Shown piece by piece: positions 2,564 through 44,310 of a stretch of 64,000 nt of DNA. Source of the stretch: Escherichia phage IrisVonRoten; sequence record MZ501075. The stretch is one strand, 5' to 3'. Each line of letters begins with the position of its first letter. Position 1 is the first letter of the stretch. The position numbers and the translations under genes were made by a program. The notes beneath the pieces are model-generated. The model did no database searches. It was not told the origin of the DNA and saw nothing but the letters and a program-made list of their open reading frames with translations.

Positions 2564-5123
2564 CGAGAATCCTTTTCACGTTATCCAGATCTTTACATAC
2601 AGCAATAAACTTATCATCCTTGTACTTGCTGTGGTCTGGATGCTCTTTATCCATCGCAGCTAATTTCTTATACTCGAAATCTGCATCAAGTAGCATTTCT
2701 TTAACGTAACGAGTATATTCGTCATCATCAATACAAGCGATTGATGGGTGCTGTTTCTTCATCTTACCACAAGAATAGTCACGAGAACCTCCAGCTTCAG
2801 AATCTGAATCAATACCAATCGGACAGCCAGGAATACTGATACCACGGTCTTTCTGAATATTACGAATCAGGATTTCATTGTATTGGTCGATCAAATCCTC
2901 ACGAACAATAGCAACTACGGAGTCATGAACCAGCATAACAATCTTCATCTCTTGTTCTAAACCAAGAGAAATGATTTCATTATCTGCATCTACAGCACCT
3001 AAAAGGAGACTATCAGAAGAAGCAGACTGAATGATTGCGTTAAATCCAGAACGAATTTCTTCACCCTGAACGCCACGGTCCTCGGAGTGGATATTATGTA
3101 GACGACGTTTGCGACCAAAGTGACTATAGATAAATCCATGATTCTTGATCTGATCGTGGCACTTATCAATCCAACGCTTAAGCTGTGGGAATTGACTAAA
3201 GTAAGTCTCAATGTACTCTTTAGCATCTGCAACAGTACATTCAACAAACGGTTCACCAGTTTTGGCTGCTTGTTCGAGCAATGCTTCGTTAACAGAATGT
3301 GCTACTTTAGCCGGGCCAGAACCATACAAAATACCAAAGGTAATTGCCTTAGCTGCCTGACGTAGAGCTGGGAACAGCTTCTTAACATCACGAGGTTCAC
3401 ATTGCAATTTAAATACCATGTGGGCGATGTTAGAGTGGAAGTCAGGGTATTTATCAGGTTCATTTCTCATGTTGATAAATACTTGTTGCATATTTCTATC
3501 ACCAGATAGAACAGCAGCATAATAAACTTCCGCAGTTGTTAAGTCCCATGCGATTACACGGTATCCAGGTGGTGCAACTACACAACCCTTAATGATAGAT
3601 TCATCACGGGGTAACTGTTGCAGGTTCAGTTTACCAGAAGAACTCAGACGACCAGAAGTAGTCATGTGTTCGTGGAAACCAGTACGAATGCAACCATCAG
3701 CATCAATGCTCAGAAGAATCTTCTCAACGTAAGTAGAGATCAGCTTAGTCAGCTTACGAATCTCTAGTAGAGTCTTAGCAATTGGATGCTGTGTAGACAA
3801 TTCGTTCAGAGCTTCTGCGTCTGTAGAGTCTGCTCCAGTATCCGTCAATTTACCCGTTGGAGTTAAGCCAACATAATCAAACAGAAGAACACGGAGTTGT
3901 TTAACAGAGTTTGGGTTAAACGCTTCGTTCTGATCTTTCTCTAGCTGAACGACTTCTGGATAAGTATACAGCTTTTCACGAGCTTTATTCAGATTATGGG
4001 TTAACTGGTACTGAGCTTCTTTTAAACGATCAATAGAAATAGGTACACCACGATCCTCAACACGCTGGAGAAATACACAACCAGGCATTAGGACATCATA
4101 ATACAGACTGCAAAGTTTTTCATTCTTCTCAATTTTTGGTAAGAAGAAGTTGTGCAAACGTATGGTGGCATCGGTATCTTTTGCAGCGTAAGGCCACATA
4201 ATATCAAACGGAATTAAATCATAGGTGAAATCTTCTTTCTTGATTTTATGTGCTTTGCAGTAATCATCTTTGAACTTATCTAGTTCAAAGTCATAGTCAC
4301 CCATATCTGTATACTTCATTGCTAGAGATTTCAAGCCATGAGTACCACGACGCTCATCTAGAACATAATGCTGCAACATTGTATCATGGAGTCTGCGTTC
4401 TTTATGTGCTTTATCAAAAGTAAGTCCCAGATGGTACTTATAAAAGTGCATATCAAACTTCAAGTTGTGAAAAACAATAGTGTGGTTTTCACTATCCAGA
4501 ATTTTCTGGAGATAATATACTGCAACCTCTGTGAGACAATCAGAATCGATATATACACCCTGATACTCTTGGTGAGATATAGAAACACCAAGCAGATAAC
4601 CATCTCGACAGTATAGTGCTGAGGTTTCGGAGTCGAATGCGACAGGTCCGATAACCATATTATACACCATCTTGATATATTCTTCTGCCTCATCAGGGTC
4701 AGTAATAGGGCGGTAATCACCAGCTTTTGCAATCTTCTCACGACCATTGATAATATCGTGGATATTCTCTACTGTTGCATCAAAAACTGGTTTCATTTCA
4801 GGTTTAAAGTGTAACTGGGCTGGGCTGATACTCGCAATCCAGTTAGCATATCCATTATACTCTACACGTTTACCGGTATAATCACCAATACCTTTCTTAC
4901 CTGCAAAGTACAAGAAAGGTTCGGCACCTACCAGTATAACAAAATCATAGTCACTCGGGTCAAATGGGTTTTCCGGAGTCCCGATAGTAATATGCTTTTT
5001 GAGCAAACGACCGGACAACTTCTCGTTACACATATGGAATACATCAACTTCCTCGCCGTATAGCTGGAAATGTTTATCATAACGAGTGTTGTTTAGAGCT
5101 TTATCAACTACTGCGATTTTCAA
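2556..5123 (-). CDS. DNA polymerase, family A, with 3'-5' exonuclease domain
   Basis: Exo I motif FDSETSAL, motif B RQAAKAITFGILYG, motif C LVHDS. Confidence 0.9.
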   Translation of the reverse strand: MKIAVVDKALNNTRYDKHFQLYGEEVDVFHMCNEKLSGRLLKKHITIGTPENPFDPSDYDFVILVGAEPFLYFAGKKGIGDYTGKRVEYNGYANWIASISPAQLHFKPEMKPVFDATVENIHDIINGREKIAKAGDYRPITDPDEAEEYIKMVYNMVIGPVAFDSETSALYCRDGYLLGVSISHQEYQGVYIDSDCLTEVAVYYLQKILDSENHTIVFHNLKFDMHFYKYHLGLTFDKAHKERRLHDTMLQHYVLDERRGTHGLKSLAMKYTDMGDYDFELDKFKDDYCKAHKIKKEDFTYDLIPFDIMWPYAAKDTDATIRLHNFFLPKIEKNEKLCSLYYDVLMPGCVFLQRVEDRGVPISIDRLKEAQYQLTHNLNKAREKLYTYPEVVQLEKDQNEAFNPNSVKQLRVLLFDYVGLTPTGKLTDTGADSTDAEALNELSTQHPIAKTLLEIRKLTKLISTYVEKILLSIDADGCIRTGFHEHMTTSGRLSSSGKLNLQQLPRDESIIKGCVVAPPGYRVIAWDLTTAEVYYAAVLSGDRNMQQVFINMRNEPDKYPDFHSNIAHMVFKLQCEPRDVKKLFPALRQAAKAITFGILYGSGPAKVAHSVNEALLEQAAKTGEPFVECTVADAKEYIETYFSQFPQLKRWIDKCHDQIKNHGFIYSHFGRKRRLHNIHSEDRGVQGEEIRSGFNAIIQSASSDSLLLGAVDADNEIISLGLEQEMKIVMLVHDSVVAIVREDLIDQYNEILIRNIQKDRGISIPGCPIGIDSDSEAGGSRDYSCGKMKKQHPSIACIDDDEYTRYVKEMLLDADFEYKKLAAMDKEHPDHSKYKDDKFIAVCKDLDNVKRILGA

Positions 5124-5185
5124 ATTTAATCTCCTCTTGGTAAGTAAGTATAACTTCAGTGTTTCTTCTCTAACTTACCAATATA

Positions 5186-6076
5186 TTATACCAAATCTTT
5201 AAGCGATTCAGCAACTAAAATTTCAATACGTTTTGCTAACATATCAATCTCTTCTTTATTTAAGTCCCCAGGGTCTTTACCTTCAGGCAGAAGAAAGTTA
5301 GCAACTACAGGTGTTAAACGCGTTTTTGTACGAATTAGCTTGGCCAGTGCTTGTGCAGCTTTATTACCAGAAGCATCATTATCTAGTAAGATAACAACAA
5401 CTTTTACACCGGCAATAATATAAGGACTGAACTTATCTGCAATGTTATCTGAAGTAAACTGATGTGTACCAAAGCAGCAGGAAGCATAGTCTATACCATT
5501 ATCCTCTAGGTTCAGCATATCAAAGATACCTTCAACTAGAATAAGAACTGGAGTATTATATCGTACAGGAAAAATTGGTGGTGAAACTTGTTTTGGTTTT
5601 ACTAAGTATTTAGGAGGGGCAGAACTGTTTATAGAACGACCCAAAAATAGGATATTGCGTCCAACAGCATCTGTGATTGGGAATACAATTCTGCCTTCCC
5701 AGTCTGCTTGGTGTTGGAAAGCAAAATATTTCTTCAAGGTCTTAGAACTTATACCCCGGAAATCACCTTCGAAAAGGTAAGCAGATTCAGGGATTGCAAG
5801 ATTCGTTGATCCATTCCTAATCTCTGAAATCTTTTTACGTACTTGCGATAGCCTTGGGGACTGTCGGTACTGAGTCTCATTAAAATAATGGTAAATGCTC
5901 GGTATACCTTTACCGAAGCCACAACTCAAGCAGTGCATAATACCTGTTTCAGGGTCAATACGCAAACTTGGGTGTTTATCGTCATGATCTGGATTGAGAC
6001 AACAGATGAGGATGTCCCCACCTGTGTCCTTATATTCAATGCCTTTCAGATCAAGTAGTTCTGTTATTCTACTCAT
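5186..6076 (-). CDS. DNA primase (DnaG-like zinc ribbon + TOPRIM)
   Basis: CCLNPDHDDKHPS...HCLSCGFGKG zinc-binding motif; acidic TOPRIM segment VEGIFDMLNLEDNG. Confidence 0.75.
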   Translation of the reverse strand: MSRITELLDLKGIEYKDTGGDILICCLNPDHDDKHPSLRIDPETGIMHCLSCGFGKGIPSIYHYFNETQYRQSPRLSQVRKKISEIRNGSTNLAIPESAYLFEGDFRGISSKTLKKYFAFQHQADWEGRIVFPITDAVGRNILFLGRSINSSAPPKYLVKPKQVSPPIFPVRYNTPVLILVEGIFDMLNLEDNGIDYASCCFGTHQFTSDNIADKFSPYIIAGVKVVVILLDNDASGNKAAQALAKLIRTKTRLTPVVANFLLPEGKDPGDLNKEEIDMLAKRIEILVAESLKDLV

Positions 6077-34842: not shown

Positions 34843-35065
34843 ATATTCATAAATTAGAGAACAGCGAGCCGATTACGCTGAGTGCAGAATCCCAACCGGA
34901 GCGCATTGAATAGAGTCGGTGGGTTAGTTGGAAAACTAGTACACAGGGGGCGGCAATCCCGGTTAGTGGCTAGAACGTGTAAAATGGGGCGTCTGAAACC
35001 TCTCCCCTAAACTCTTCTTTAATTTACTGATAGTGGGGTGTGGAAATCACTTATGTAGTAACACT

Positions 35066-35138
35066 GCCGATCTAGTATAAAACGGTATTATCAAGCCGTA
35101 ACTGGTGGAAGATGTAGGTTCGAATCCTACGGTCGGTA
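35066..35138 (+). ncRNA. tRNA-like element (acceptor stem + canonical T-arm, no canonical anticodon arm)
   Basis: GTAGG-TTCGAAT-CCTAC T-arm; 7-bp acceptor pairing GCCGATC/GGTCGGT; no 5-bp/7-nt anticodon stem-loop found. Confidence 0.3.
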
Positions 35139-35640
35139 AGAACTGGATAACTGGTGCTTTTAATGTAAAAGCTTCCGAGGTTAGTTGCGCACTGCCTAAA
35201 CCACGCGGTAGTTGGTTCCAGACTAACCAACCAGTCTGCTGAATAGTTTTATTACGATTTAACTATGTCCAGGCTAAAGAAGAACTTTAGAAGGTATTCT
35301 AGGATAGTGAAGTTCTTTCTCCATATCGGAGTAGTTTTTCAAACTATCCACAAAGTGGGAAATGCTGGCATGAGAGATGCCACTAATGGTGCACAATAGC
35401 ACAGGTAATTCGCGATAACTCCTGTTGAGTAGCAGCAAAAAGGTGGGGAGTCATGACCCTAACCTAACCGAGTCCTCAGTATACCGCAGGACATAACCAC
35501 TAAGTCACCTTGACTTAAACTGGAAAATAATAGACGTTACTGTATTTTGTCTTGAAATACTTAATGAGTGAGACTTATGACTCTCCCGGTATCGTCTGTA
35601 TTTTTAAGAGTTTTTACGAGAGTTCTTAAAAATACTTAAA

Positions 35641-39342: not shown

Positions 39343-39420
39343 GGTTCTCAAGCTCATATGGTATGAGCACCCGGCTCATAACCGGAAGGTACGTAGGTTC
39401 GAATCCTCGGGGAGCCACCA
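39343..39420 (+). tRNA. tRNA-Met (anticodon CAU; elongator or Ile2-type)
   Basis: Acceptor GGTTCTC/GGGAGCC, D-stem GCTC/GAGC, anticodon loop CTCATAA, weak T-stem. Confidence 0.6.
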
Positions 39421-42183: not shown

Positions 42184-42260
42184 GCGACCGGGGCTGGCTT
42201 GGTAATGGTACTCCCCTGTCACGGGAGGGAATGTGGGTTCAAATCCCATCGGTCGCGCCA
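42184..42260 (+). tRNA. tRNA-Asp (anticodon GUC)
   Basis: Acceptor GCGACCG/CGGTCGC, anticodon stem CTCCC/GGGAG loop CTGTCAC, T-loop TTCAAAT. Confidence 0.75.
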
Positions 42261-42277
42261 AATAAGGTAGGTTAGCT

Positions 42278-42436
42278 ATGGAACGTAGGGAGTTTACTCC
42301 AGAAGAGATAGAGCAGATAAAAGAATCTGCTATGAAAAATGCTAGAATATCTCTGTCACTGGAAGGTATCATTATTAGTGATGTAAACTTTGAAAAAATC
42401 AAAGCCATAGCTGATGAACTGGAAAAAGTAATTTAA
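42278..42436 (+). CDS. FicA/VbhA-like antitoxin homologue (52 aa)
   Basis: ATG after AAGGTAGG SD; NARISLSLEGI matches the S-x-x-x-E-G inhibitory helix motif recalled for VbhA/YhfG antitoxins; below track cutoff. Confidence 0.5.
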   Translation: MERREFTPEEIEQIKESAMKNARISLSLEGIIISDVNFEKIKAIADELEKVI

Positions 42437-42437
42437 T

Positions 42438-42513
42438 ACATCCATAGCTCAATGGTTAGAGCTACCGCCTCTTAAGCGGAGGGTTCTAGGTTCAAGTCCT
42501 AGTGGGTGTACCA
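42438..42513 (+). tRNA. tRNA-Lys (anticodon CUU)
   Basis: Acceptor ACATCCA/TGGGTGT, D-stem GCTC/GAGC, anticodon loop CTCTTAA, T-loop TTCAAGT. Confidence 0.75.
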
Positions 42514-42539
42514 AATTAAACTAGCACGAGAAATATGCT

Positions 42540-42887
42540 ATGATTAATGCTAAAGAAGAGTTGTTACTTGCCCTAAAGAATACTAAGTCTGAAGTTAAGT
42601 GTATTAAGATAGAATTCGGTTATTATGGGGACAAAGAAGTTTGGGTATTACCAGTAGGTTATACAGAAAAAGATATTGAAGATTTTCTAAATAACCTAGA
42701 CTTTAAATATGATTCTGGTTTTGGTGGACAATTGCTTTATGGTAACGTATGGTTTACTGATGGAACTTGGTTAGAACGTGGTGAATATGATGGTTCTGAA
42801 TGGTGGGAGTATAAGACTACGCCAGCAATCCCAGAAGAATGCCGAACAATTAATGGTGAAGTAGATAATACTTTACGGTTAAACTAA
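42540..42887 (+). CDS. hypothetical protein
   Basis: 115-aa ORF. Confidence 0.6.
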   Translation: MINAKEELLLALKNTKSEVKCIKIEFGYYGDKEVWVLPVGYTEKDIEDFLNNLDFKYDSGFGGQLLYGNVWFTDGTWLERGEYDGSEWWEYKTTPAIPEECRTINGEVDNTLRLN

Positions 42888-42894
42888 TAAAATT

Positions 42895-42999
42895 TCAGTG
42901 CAGAACACGGAGCTAGCAATTCGGAAGTGCTGACTCATGATAAGCTGCCTATGTACTTGCTAAGCGGTCGTGTCCAAGACTCGGACTCTTGCACTGAAA
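42895..42999 (+). ncRNA. structured RNA domain closed by 10-bp long-range helix
   Basis: TTTCAGTGCA at 42895 pairs with TGCACTGAAA at 42990; no ORF. Confidence 0.3.
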
Positions 43000-43009
43000 A
43001 CAATCAAAC

Positions 43010-43130
43010 ATTCTAGCGTGGTTGATGGGGAAACCAGCTTGGCGAGGGCAGAAGCTCGTTCGATTCGAGTGAAAGAATGGTTCTCGTAAGTCCGCACAAG
43101 TGATAACAGGTTCGAGTCCTGTCTAGAATG
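43010..43130 (+). ncRNA. long tRNA-like RNA (~121 nt) with duplicated T-arm
   Basis: Perfect 7-bp acceptor ATTCTAG/CTAGAAT; D-arm TGGT/ACCA; two T-arm hairpins (TTCGATT and TTCGAGT loops); no canonical anticodon arm. Confidence 0.35.
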
Positions 43131-43145
43131 ACACTATAAAGTTTA

Positions 43146-43257
43146 CTTATTATGTAGGTTCCGATAGATCGGCGGGTCTATTCTGGCATTTAAGAGAGGT
43201 CTCGCAAACTTCTTTGTCAGCCGTGGGGTTGGTAGCCTCCAGGTGGCCTACACAATA
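43146..43257 (+). ncRNA. structured RNA domain closed by ~12-bp long-range helix
   Basis: CTTATTATGTAGG pairs with CCTACACAATAAG; internal hairpins; no ORF. Confidence 0.3.
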
Positions 43258-43279
43258 AGTAAATTTATTAAAAATTCAT

Positions 43280-43308
43280 TTGCTATTTTGCTTAATTCTC
43301 TGTATAAT
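43280..43308 (+). promoter_or_regulatory. T5-type early promoter
   Basis: TTGCTA, 17-bp spacer, TATAAT. Confidence 0.7.
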
Positions 43309-43340
43309 ATATCTTATAAAGTGAAGAGAAGGAAAGCTAA

Positions 43341-43499
43341 ATGAAGTATAAAATTGCATCAGTATTCATGTGTACTTGGGTTATTCCTATAGTAATAGTA
43401 GGGTTTAACATAGATAACTTTTCTATCATAGAAAAGTTATTAGGACTAAGTACAGGCTTTACAATGCTAGGATTAAGCATGTTGTGGCTGAAGAAATAA
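43341..43499 (+). CDS. small hydrophobic membrane peptide (52 aa)
   Basis: ATG after GAAGAGAAGGAAAG SD; two predicted TM segments. Confidence 0.5.
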   Translation: MKYKIASVFMCTWVIPIVIVGFNIDNFSIIEKLLGLSTGFTMLGLSMLWLKK

Positions 43500-43682: not shown

Positions 43683-43847
43683 ATGAAAGTATTTCGATTA
43701 GTAGTAAGTGATCGACGTTCTAGCAAAGATCGTTCGAAGTATACCTTAGCCCATTATGGTAAAGATGAAAATGAAGTAATGGCTGAATTTGGTATTAACC
43801 ATCCTTACTTAAAAGTCTACTCTATTAAGGAAGTTTATGCTTATTAA
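43683..43847 (+). CDS. hypothetical small protein (54 aa)
   Basis: ATG after AGGGGA. Confidence 0.35.
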   Translation: MKVFRLVVSDRRSSKDRSKYTLAHYGKDENEVMAEFGINHPYLKVYSIKEVYAY

Positions 43848-44310
43848 CAGGGTACTTCAAGCCCTGGATCTTCCAAGGCACTTTACTATTACTGACTCCT
43901 TAATACGTAGGTATATGGAGAAGTATAACGAAATATCTGGTAAAGAAGGTAAACTAAAGTCCTCGGAGTTTAAGTTCTGTTATAGAATGGCAGCGTTAAA
44001 CCTGCTGAAGTATAAAAGGGAGCATAAAATCCCTATAACAGAAGGGTTTGTATATGTAATAGGTAATCCAGCATGGCCTGGACTCTATAAGATAGGTATG
44101 ACAGTAGACGTAAATGAAAGACTGTCTAGTTATCAAACATATTCTCCCTATCGTGATTACAAGTTATACCATTTTAGATTCTCCTCGGACAAGAGAAGAA
44201 CTGAAAAAGCATTACATAGTCTTCTGAAAGACTACAAAGTATCAGGAGAATGGTTTGAAGTACCTCTGTTAGACGCTTTCAAACTATTAGTAGAGAATTT
44301 GGATTGCTAG
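43837..44310 (+). CDS. T5orf172-domain (GIY-YIG-like) protein, putative homing endonuclease
   Basis: GFVYVIGN...LYKIGMT motif; 3' end overlaps start of tRNA-Lys. Confidence 0.6.
   Translation: MLINRVLQALDLPRHFTITDSLIRRYMEKYNEISGKEGKLKSSEFKFCYRMAALNLLKYKREHKIPITEGFVYVIGNPAWPGLYKIGMTVDVNERLSSYQTYSPYRDYKLYHFRFSSDKRRTEKALHSLLKDYKVSGEWFEVPLLDAFKLLVENLDC

What the first reader, a model, noticed from the sequence alone, without database searches (positions are those of the whole stretch)
42278..42436. Orphan FicA/VbhA-like antitoxin homologue between tRNA genes
A 52-aa ORF with a good ribosome-binding site carries NARISLSLEGI, which matches the S-x-x-x-E-G inhibitory helix motif of antitoxins that block Fic-domain AMPylating toxins. 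No Fic toxin gene is in the window. A phage-borne orphan antitoxin could neutralise host Fic toxins or toxin-based abortive infection.
Basis: partly seen in the sequence, partly recalled or inferred. Interest (0 to 1): 0.6.

Follow-up and report, generated by a model that had tools for sequence, protein, structure and literature searches.

The report
Phage orphan copy of Fic-toxin partner
A 52-residue gene squeezed between two tRNA genes of a T5-like phage is a trimmed copy of a small bacterial protein that is always encoded tail-to-tail with a Fic (AMP-transferring) toxin in defence islands, so it is probably a stolen antitoxin that lets the phage switch off Fic-based immunity.

Summary
The ORF (42278-42436, +) is real, has a good RBS, and sits 17 nt after tRNA-Asp and 1 nt before tRNA-Lys(CTT) in a T5-like phage. 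Independent evidence nevertheless supports the core idea. The phage family is clearly homologous (hhalign 98.5%, E 1.8e-15) to 65-71-aa bacterial, plasmid and P2-prophage proteins. These are encoded convergently, with 3' ends overlapping or abutting, with a 337-aa Fic protein. That Fic has the canonical HPFxDGNGRxxR motif, no internal inhibitory helix motif (class-I-like), VbhT as best solved relative, and PADLOC PDC-S04 as best defence-model match. These cassettes lie in defence contexts: the P2 gpA-portal interval, and beside SoFic. S and G of the motif are invariant, with E in 63 and D in 6 of 69 clusters, and the motif caps helix 1 of a helix-loop-helix. Orphan copies occur patchily in T5-like and T4-like lytic phages; T5's tRNA region lacks it. 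Best reading: a new, unannotated Fic-antitoxin family whose phage copies are anti-defence antitoxin mimics. Function is inferred, not shown.

The parts
42264..42271 (+). Shine-Dalgarno-like AAGGTAGG, 6 nt upstream of the ATG
   Evidence: Sequence read
42278..42436 (+). 52-aa ORF (PHROG 19286), trimmed homologue of the small partner protein of a class-I-type Fic toxin
42299..42361 (+). Predicted helix 1 (residues 8-28); its last turn carries S25
   Evidence: AlphaFold2 model, mean pLDDT 91
42338..42367 (+). Conserved core N21-A-R-x-S25-x-x-L-E29-G30; S and G invariant, E in 63 and D in 6 of the 69 clusters matched by the scan; candidate inhibitory Ser/Glu at the helix C-cap
42380..42430 (+). 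Predicted helix 2 (residues 35-51), conserved K40, L48, E49
42184..42260 (+). tRNA-Asp(GTC), upstream neighbour; in phage T5 it is followed directly by the T5.067 gene
42438..42513 (+). tRNA-Lys(CTT), starts 1 nt after the ORF stop; with the ORF it forms an insertion relative to T5

Best explanation
The ORF encodes a minimal helix-loop-helix protein derived from a previously unannotated family of class-I-type Fic antitoxins. In bacteria, plasmids, ICEs and P2-like prophages, the full-length 65-71-aa form has an N-terminal beta-hairpin plus the same helix-loop-helix. It is encoded convergently with a 337-aa Fic AMP-transferase that lacks an inhibitory helix of its own. By analogy with VbhA/VbhT and FicA/FicT, the small protein would supply the inhibitory helix in trans. 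The Ser and Glu of S-x-x-x-E-G at the C-cap of helix 1 would reach into the ATP site and force a non-productive ATP orientation. The lytic phage keeps only the inhibitory core. It expresses it from the early tRNA gene cluster, co-transcribed with tRNAs, to keep such Fic toxins silent during infection. This could work, for example, after host shut-off has depleted the cell's own labile antitoxin, and would defeat Fic-based abortive infection. Shown here: gene reality, homology, synteny with Fic, motif conservation and position, defence-island context, and patchy orphan distribution in lytic phages. Inferred: physical binding, inhibition of AMPylation, and the anti-defence role.
For: (1) The phage family versus the Fic-linked bacterial family gives hhalign probability 98.5%, E 1.8e-15, 41 columns, 54% identity. 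A phage-only profile retrieves bacterial members at E 2e-6 among 1.84 billion proteins. (2) The small gene lies convergent to a Fic gene (PF02661), with 3' ends overlapping or abutting. This is seen in E. coli IncFII plasmids, a Proteus conjugative element, Yersinia, Mixta, Phytobacter, two MAGs and a Klebsiella integrase island. The same arrangement persists in P2-like phages STYP1 and R18C, where the Fic is only 37% identical and the small protein is strongly diverged yet keeps S-F-S-L-E-G. (3) All 7 partner Fic proteins examined have HPF[EQ]DGNGRxxR and no internal [ST]xxxE[GN]. That fits class I as defined in PMC3667792, apart from gene order. Their best solved relative is VbhT (E 5e-9). 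(4) Motif conservation: S and G invariant, E in 63 and D in 6 of 69 clusters. AF2 puts the motif at the C-cap of helix 1 in both the phage form (pLDDT 91) and the bacterial form. (5) Defence context: the Fic matches PADLOC PDC-S04 at 1e-27 to 1e-29. In P2-like phages the cassette lies between the gpA and portal genes, and Rousset 2022 supplements list 'Fic + hypothetical' cassettes in P2/P4 hotspots. In Klebsiella it lies beside a SoFic-type gene. In Serratia the small gene lies beside Gabija-like genes. (6) Orphan, patchy distribution in lytic phages. The ORF is in 61 (DNA) to 108 (protein) phage records, against 471 that share the flanks. It is absent from the 25 kb of T5 (20-45 kb) that holds the tRNA cluster. 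47-aa orphans occur in T4-like contigs with no Fic nearby. No T5-like record encodes the partner Fic. (7) A Fic defence (SoFic) is reported to protect strongly against T5 (PMC12249575), so T5-like phages are under selection by Fic enzymes.
Against: No detectable sequence-profile relationship to VbhA or YhfG. The gene order in bacteria is convergent and downstream, unlike known class I pairs, where the antitoxin is upstream and co-directional. Six clusters have Asp instead of the supposedly critical Glu. Three Serratia contexts have the small gene without a Fic, so it may have a Fic-independent role. Phage versions lack the N-terminal beta-hairpin, which might be needed for binding. Fold searches are uninformative for such a small hairpin. 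No complex could be modelled and nothing was tested experimentally.
Confidence: 0.55

Rival explanations
1. The small protein is a partner of the Fic enzyme but not an active-site inhibitor. It could be an activator, a specificity or targeting subunit, a transcriptional regulator of the convergent operon, or a substrate or decoy. The phage copy would then manipulate or mimic that role, for example by acting as a decoy that prevents sensing.
For: The convergent, 3'-overlapping gene layout is atypical for type II toxin-antitoxin pairs. There is no detectable homology to VbhA or YhfG. Glu is replaced by Asp in six clusters. AS1, the reported SoFic antitoxin, may act through protein stability rather than active-site blocking (PMC12249575).
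Against: The partner Fic lacks any internal inhibitory motif while carrying a fully canonical AMPylation motif. According to PMC3667792, such enzymes are toxic unless inhibited in trans. The only conserved neighbour carries exactly that motif, at a helix C-cap as in VbhA.
Confidence: 0.15
2. The phage protein has a Fic-unrelated job, for example in tRNA processing or translation, or in host take-over. It merely shares ancestry with the bacterial Fic-linked protein.
For: It is embedded in the tRNA cluster, 1 nt from tRNA-Lys(CTT). Orphan bacterial copies exist without a Fic. The phage forms have lost the N-terminal third.
Against: In another T5-like phage (vB STyj5-1) the ORF and tRNA-Lys(CTT) are 2.5 kb apart. 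The tRNA is in 246 records and the ORF in 61, so they are not an obligate pair. T4-like copies are not next to tRNAs. The residues conserved between phage and bacterial forms are the candidate inhibitory motif and helix 2, which points to a retained binding function.
Confidence: 0.15
3. It is a bona fide, very divergent member of the VbhA/FicA (YhfG) antitoxin superfamily.
For: VbhA, YhfG and this family share the register N-x-x-x-S-x-x-[LI]-E-G at the end of helix 1 (VbhA and YhfG sequences verified; alignments). BLASTP against VbhA gives 42% over 26 residues, pairwise E 0.004. hhalign of the phage alignment against VbhA gives 48%. The partner Fic's best solved relative is VbhT.
Against: There are no Pfam VbhA hits and only sub-threshold YhfG hits. 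Probability falls to 6% and 0.7% when the query alignment is broadened. The PDB profile search misses both. The similarity is confined to about 10 residues that could be convergent, as PMC3667792 argues for the three Fic classes.
Confidence: 0.15

Closest known systems
VbhA, antitoxin of the class I Fic toxin VbhT (Bartonella; PDB 3SHG/3ZC7; Pfam PF18495)
   Same: Small (about 60 aa) helical protein. S-x-x-x-E-G at the C-terminal end of the first helix, preceded by N at S-4 and L at E-1. The partner Fic of the bacterial homologues is most similar to VbhT among solved structures and lacks its own inhibitory helix.
   Different: No significant profile match. Two helices instead of three. Bacterial homologues are encoded downstream and convergent rather than upstream in an operon. 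The phage gene has no toxin partner at all.
FicA (YhfG), antitoxin of E. coli FicT (PDB 5JFF; Pfam PF10832)
   Same: Same motif register (N-F-Q-A-S-R-R-L-E-G) and size. One or two family members give sub-threshold YhfG hits at E 0.026-0.15, about the level at which VbhA itself hits YhfG (E 0.047).
   Different: Below every significance threshold. Different gene order. The partner Fic has an extra N-terminal domain of about 150 aa.
AS1 (anti-SoFic1), 47-aa antitoxin encoded downstream of the SoFic defence gene of E. coli H397 (PMC12249575)
   Same: A very small protein encoded downstream of a Fic-domain anti-phage protein that neutralises its toxicity. SoFic is reported to protect against T5. 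One Klebsiella island carries the Fic/small-gene pair right beside a SoFic-type gene.
   Different: SoFic is class II, with an internal inhibitory helix. The AS1 sequence is not given in the paper, so identity or homology could not be checked. Every 47-aa family member whose context was read (3 of the 5 such clusters) is in a T4-like phage contig, not beside SoFic.
Phage-encoded antitoxin mimics (e.g. T4 Dmd against RnlA/LsoA, pseudo-ToxI of phage phiTE); from general knowledge, not tested here
   Same: A lytic phage carries a stand-alone inhibitor of a host toxin whose cognate antitoxin is lost on infection. It is an accessory gene with patchy distribution.
   Different: Here the phage gene is a recognisable trimmed homologue of the cognate protein antitoxin, and the target would be a Fic AMP-transferase. 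I found no phage counter-measure against such enzymes in the literature searched.

Membership tests
VbhA (Pfam PF18495) | Significant match to the family profile | tested here: not met
   No hit at E<=10 for the ORF or any of 64 relatives. Positive control: VbhA scores 47 bits, E 2e-12.
VbhA (Pfam PF18495) | Profile-profile similarity to a VbhA alignment | tested here: inconclusive
   hhalign gives 48% / E 1.8e-4 with the phage-only alignment, 6% with the mixed alignment and 0.7% with the bacterial alignment. The VbhA alignment used is Bartonella-centred.
VbhA / FicA-type inhibitory module | [S/T]xxxE[G/N] motif on an alpha-helix (alpha-inh), conserved in the family | tested here: met
   S25 and G30 invariant; E29 in 63 of 69 clusters and D in 6. 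The motif sits at the C-cap of helix 1 in AF2 models.
VbhA / FicA-type inhibitory module | Encoded immediately upstream of, and co-directional with, a Fic toxin gene | tested here: not met
   There is no Fic in the window. Bacterial and P2 homologues are downstream and convergent, with 3' ends overlapping or abutting.
YhfG/FicA (Pfam PF10832) | Significant match to the family profile | tested here: not met
   Only 1-2 members hit, at E 0.026-0.15, below the 22.6-bit cutoff.
Class I Fic toxin-antitoxin pair (sense of PMC3667792) | Partner Fic has the canonical HxFx(D/E)GNGRxxR motif and no inhibitory helix motif of its own | tested here: met
   7 of 7 partner Fic proteins have HPF[EQ]DGNGRxxR at position 273 and no [ST]xxxE[GN] anywhere. 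This applies to the bacterial homologues' partner, not to the window.
Class I Fic toxin-antitoxin pair | The small protein binds the Fic domain and blocks AMPylation; an E-to-G change relieves inhibition | not testable with these tools
   This needs co-expression and AMPylation assays or complex modelling.
AS1 (anti-SoFic1) | Sequence identity or homology to the 47-aa EcAS1 | not testable with these tools
   The AS1 sequence is not in the paper text and no supplement is held.
Phage anti-defence antitoxin mimic | Orphan homologue of a defence-associated antitoxin in lytic phages, accessory and patchy | tested here: met
Phage anti-defence antitoxin mimic | Restores phage growth on hosts carrying the toxin system | not testable with these tools
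   This is an experiment.

The most novel reading that the evidence does not exclude
The 52-aa protein is a trans-acting, broad inhibitor of Fic-domain immunity. It would neutralise not only the 337-aa class-I-type Fic carried by plasmids, ICEs and P2 prophages but also SoFic-type defences, which are reported to block T5. Its presence or absence would then explain differences in Fic-defence sensitivity among T5-like and T4-like phages. That would make it the first anti-Fic anti-defence protein. It would also define a new convergently encoded Fic toxin-antitoxin defence module.
Probability: 0.2. Interest if true: 0.8.

Novelty: new variant of a known kind. Interest (0 to 1): 0.66.

Why it matters
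Fic-domain proteins (SoFic, PADLOC candidate PDC-S04) are recently recognised anti-phage effectors. How they are triggered is open, and I found no phage counter-measure in the literature searched. This finding links three things that are all annotated 'hypothetical'. The first is a small protein family encoded convergently with a class-I-type Fic in defence hotspots. The second and third are its orphan, trimmed copies in two unrelated groups of virulent phages. If the inference holds, it gives (i) a new Fic toxin-antitoxin architecture missed by the original three-class scheme, (ii) a ready-made 52-residue inhibitor with which to probe Fic defence activation, and (iii) a predictor of host range for T5-like therapeutic phages. 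All of these are directly testable with simple co-expression and plaque assays.

Tried and rejected
Direct family assignment:
- Pfam, NCBIfam and PADLOC scans of the ORF and of 64 relatives gave no VbhA or YhfG hit.
- phmmer and hmmsearch against PDB sequences found neither VbhA nor YhfG.

Fold comparison:
- Foldseek-PDB had no hit with E below 1.
- The afdb50 library was unavailable.

Other attempts that led nowhere:
- Complex modelling of Fic plus the small protein was not attempted.
- Whether AS1 belongs to this family could not be checked because no sequence is available.
- A megablast of the E. coli Fic cassette against 5,426 complete E. coli genomes found no full-length copy. PLSDB has 3 plasmids with it, annotated 'Fic family protein | hypothetical protein'.
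- The promoter/terminator scan around the ORF was not above shuffled expectation.
- The idea that the upstream co-directional 63-70-aa ORFs are the real antitoxins was rejected. They are unrelated between E. coli and Proteus and lack the motif.
- The literature hit 'VbhA + phage' for a Hafnia phage was a text artefact of the name vB_HalM.
- The idea that the ORF and tRNA-Lys(CTT) are an obligate module was rejected.

Full report
**1. What is in the window.**

The window is part of a T5-like phage (Demerecviridae, Tequintavirus). The 2 kb around the finding is 96% identical to Salmonella phage vB_SalS_ABTNLsp9 and matches 471 phage records. ARAGORN finds 25 tRNA genes.

The ORF is exactly as described: 42278-42436, + strand, 52 aa, MERREFTPEEIEQIKESAMKNARISLSLEGIIISDVNFEKIKAIADELEKVI.
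- AAGGTAGG lies 6 nt upstream of the ATG.
- tRNA-Asp ends 17 nt before the ATG.
- tRNA-Lys(CTT) starts 1 nt after the stop codon.

In related genomes the ORF is annotated 'hypothetical protein'. The window contains no Fic motif and no homologue of the Fic family discussed below.

**2. Is the motif more than chance?**

The bare [ST]xxxE[GN] pattern is found in 17 of 205 window ORFs, an expectation of 0.038 for a 52-aa ORF.

The extended string is different.
- N21, A22, R23, S25, L28, E29 and G30 are invariant among the close T5-like relatives.
- Across the 69 clusters of the wider family that the motif scan matched, S and G are invariant. The acidic residue is E in 63 and D in 6.
- AlphaFold2 (pLDDT 91) predicts helix 8-28, loop 29-34 and helix 35-51. 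Ser is in the last helical turn and Glu-Gly is at the C-cap. From the literature, that is where VbhA carries S20/E24/G25.

**3. Direct tests of the VbhA/FicA assignment fail.**

- Pfam has a working VbhA model: genuine VbhA scores E 2e-12. Neither the ORF nor any of 64 relatives hits it.
- YhfG appears only at E 0.026-0.15, for one or two members.
- NCBIfam and PADLOC give nothing for the small proteins.
- PDB sequence searches with the ORF or with family profiles miss the VbhA and YhfG chains.
- BLASTP against VbhA aligns 26 residues at 42% (pairwise E 0.004).
- hhalign against a VbhA alignment gives 48% probability with the narrow phage alignment. It gives 6% and 0.7% with broader alignments.

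Membership of the VbhA or YhfG families is therefore not demonstrated. The shared register N-x-x-x-S-x-x-[L/I]-E-G in VbhA, YhfG and this family may be remote homology or convergence (sequences verified).

**4. Where the relatives are.**

A full HMMER scan of 1.84 billion representatives with a phage-only profile, and a second profile search, define a small family of about 70 clusters with three habitats.
- (i) T5-like phages of Escherichia, Salmonella, Pectobacterium and Erwinia, plus more distant copies in Klebsiella and Proteus phages of about 100-115 kb.
- (ii) 47-aa orphans in T4-like phage contigs, among small accessory genes and with no Fic gene nearby.
- (iii) 67-71-aa proteins in Enterobacterales chromosomes, plasmids and ICEs: Serratia, Yersinia, Klebsiella, Proteus, E. 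coli, E. albertii, Pantoea and Mixta.

The phage and bacterial alignments match at hhalign probability 98.5%, E 1.8e-15, over 41 columns. This covers the whole helix-loop-helix. The bacterial forms add an N-terminal segment predicted as a beta-hairpin.

**5. The bacterial relatives are wedded to a Fic gene.**

The small gene is followed by a convergent 337-aa Fic-domain gene whose 3' end overlaps or abuts it by a few bases. The contexts are:
- E. coli IncFII plasmids (L003-L007);
- a Proteus conjugative element (L008-L010);
- Yersinia, Mixta, Phytobacter and two MAGs (L019-L023);
- a Klebsiella integrase island (L026-L028).

P2-like phages STYP1 and R18C carry a Fic that is only 37% identical. 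It has a convergent 65-aa gene (MSKKVITIQVRGGHAGAKPVRRSKLEQSVNRSLRASFSLEGNHITNTSWSKMSQAARFLTRVAVA) that overlaps it by 4 nt in STYP1. That gene has diverged almost everywhere except the beta-hairpin signature and S-x-x-x-E-G.

Exceptions are informative.
- In one plasmid the Fic is truncated by an IS110 element (L006).
- In one MAG the Fic carries an in-frame stop (L023).
- Three Serratia contexts have the small gene alone.

Antitoxins outliving their toxins is a familiar pattern (general knowledge). The co-directional upstream ORFs are not conserved and lack the motif.

**6. What kind of Fic is it?**

- All seven partner proteins have the AMPylation-competent signature HPF[EQ]DGNGRxxR. None has an internal [ST]xxxE[GN].
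- By the scheme summarised in PMC3667792, that is a class I enzyme which needs an inhibitory helix in trans. That scheme looked for antitoxins 'immediately upstream', so this pair would have been missed.
- The best solved relative is VbhT (E 5e-9).
- The best defence model is PADLOC candidate PDC-S04 (1e-27 to 1e-29), ahead of SoFic (6e-13).
- The full-length architecture is PHROG 10690.

**7. Defence context.**

- In P2-like phages the cassette lies between the replication gene A and the portal gene. To my knowledge that interval holds P2's old and tin anti-phage genes. The supplements of Rousset et al. 2022 list 'Fic' and 'Fic + hypothetical' cassettes in P2/P4 hotspots. I did not verify that those accessions are the same family.
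- In Klebsiella the pair is flanked by an integrase, a SoFic-type gene (Fic_N/Fic/SoFic-like_C) and an McrA-like HNH gene.
- In Serratia fonticola the orphan small gene abuts Gabija-like genes: an OLD-like TOPRIM ATPase plus a UvrD helicase.
- SoFic is reported to give robust protection against T5, and a 47-aa downstream protein, AS1, neutralises it (PMC12249575).

**8. The phage gene is accessory.**

- It occurs in 61 records by DNA and 108 by tblastn. The flanks occur in 471 records and tRNA-Lys(CTT) in 246.
- In T5 itself, tRNA-Asp is followed directly by T5.067, so the [ORF + tRNA-Lys(CTT)] segment is absent. T5's 20-45 kb region has no copy.
- No T5-like record encodes the partner Fic.

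**9. Interpretation.**

The best-supported reading is that the ORF is a trimmed antitoxin of a new class-I-type Fic toxin-antitoxin/defence module. Lytic phages would have captured it to keep such Fic toxins inactive.

The inhibitory chemistry is inferred by analogy with VbhA/VbhT. There, Glu occupies the gamma-phosphate site and Ser contributes (PMC3667792).

A plausible trigger logic also exists, from general knowledge. T5 degrades host DNA and shuts off host expression, which would deplete a labile antitoxin. An early-expressed phage copy would replace it.

Steps shown: gene reality, homology, synteny, motif conservation and placement, defence context, orphan patchy distribution. Steps inferred: binding, inhibition, anti-defence phenotype.

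I put 0.55 on this mechanism. The remainder is split among three alternatives: a non-inhibitory Fic partner role, a Fic-unrelated role, and true but undetectable VbhA-superfamily membership. The last is compatible with the mechanism.

**10. Verdict.**

Novelty: a new variant of a known kind. It is a new, unannotated Fic-antitoxin-like family with a convergent gene layout, and its phage orphans are candidate anti-Fic anti-defence proteins.

Noticed in passing
window 42261-42539 versus T5 (L002 13553-13579): Relative to phage T5, this phage has an insertion of [52-aa ORF + tRNA-Lys(CTT)] between tRNA-Asp and the T5.067 homologue. tRNA-Lys(CTT) is in 246 phage records and the ORF in only 61, and in phage vB STyj5-1 the two are 2.5 kb apart. 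The tRNA cluster therefore acts as an insertion hotspot for small accessory genes.
   Followed up: partly
L026 3501-6014 (Klebsiella quasipneumoniae island): The small-gene/Fic337 pair lies directly beside a 358-aa SoFic-type gene (Fic_N, Fic, SoFic-like_C), next to an integrase and an McrA-like HNH gene. Two different Fic enzymes sit in one island, which raises the question of whether one small protein serves both.
   Followed up: no
L029-L031 1-3716 (Serratia fonticola): An orphan 71-aa homologue with no Fic downstream lies divergent from a Gabija-like pair (OLD-like TOPRIM ATPase plus UvrD helicase). L017 and L018 (other Serratia) are also Fic-less.
   Followed up: partly
L006 6212-7673; L023 about 4219-5226: Decayed toxins beside intact small genes. 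In one E. coli plasmid the Fic is cut down to its last 57 residues by an IS110-family transposase. In one MAG the Fic has an in-frame stop just before HPFEDGNGR.
   Followed up: partly
L025 2369-3669 (Salmonella phage STYP1) and L024 (phage R18C): P2-like temperate phages carry a Fic (annotated VbhT) plus a convergent 65-aa gene between the gpA and portal genes. In R18C the small gene is not annotated at all.
   Followed up: partly
window 39343-39417: Rfam finds a tRNA (40 bits) immediately after tRNA-Ser(GCT) that ARAGORN did not call. It corresponds in position to the tRNA-Met/Ile2(CAT) annotated in T5 and in vB_SalS_ABTNLsp9. Conversely, ARAGORN's tRNA-Ser(ACT) at 35065-35139 is weak (34.5 bits in Rfam) and has an unusual anticodon.
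   Followed up: partly
window 42888-43340: A non-coding stretch of about 450 nt lies between the T5.067 homologue (42540-42887) and the T5.066-like 52-aa ORF (43341-43499). In T5 the syntenic interval holds the stable RNAs RNA2 and RNAIV, of unknown function.
   Followed up: no
window 43837-44310: A 157-aa ORF with a C-terminal region (…LYKIGMT…SGEWFEV…) resembles the T5orf172/GIY-YIG-like domain seen in mobile genes. It is inserted between tRNA-Pro and tRNA-Lys(TTT). The resemblance was recognised by eye only.
   Followed up: no
P0071 (105 aa) and P0127/P0075/P0130/P0131 (82-83 aa, Proteus T5-like phages): Some phage relatives carry unrelated N-terminal extensions: a Cys-rich segment in P0071, and a different segment of about 40 aa in the Proteus phages. 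These are fused to the same helix-loop-helix core, which suggests modular reuse of the inhibitory core.
   Followed up: no
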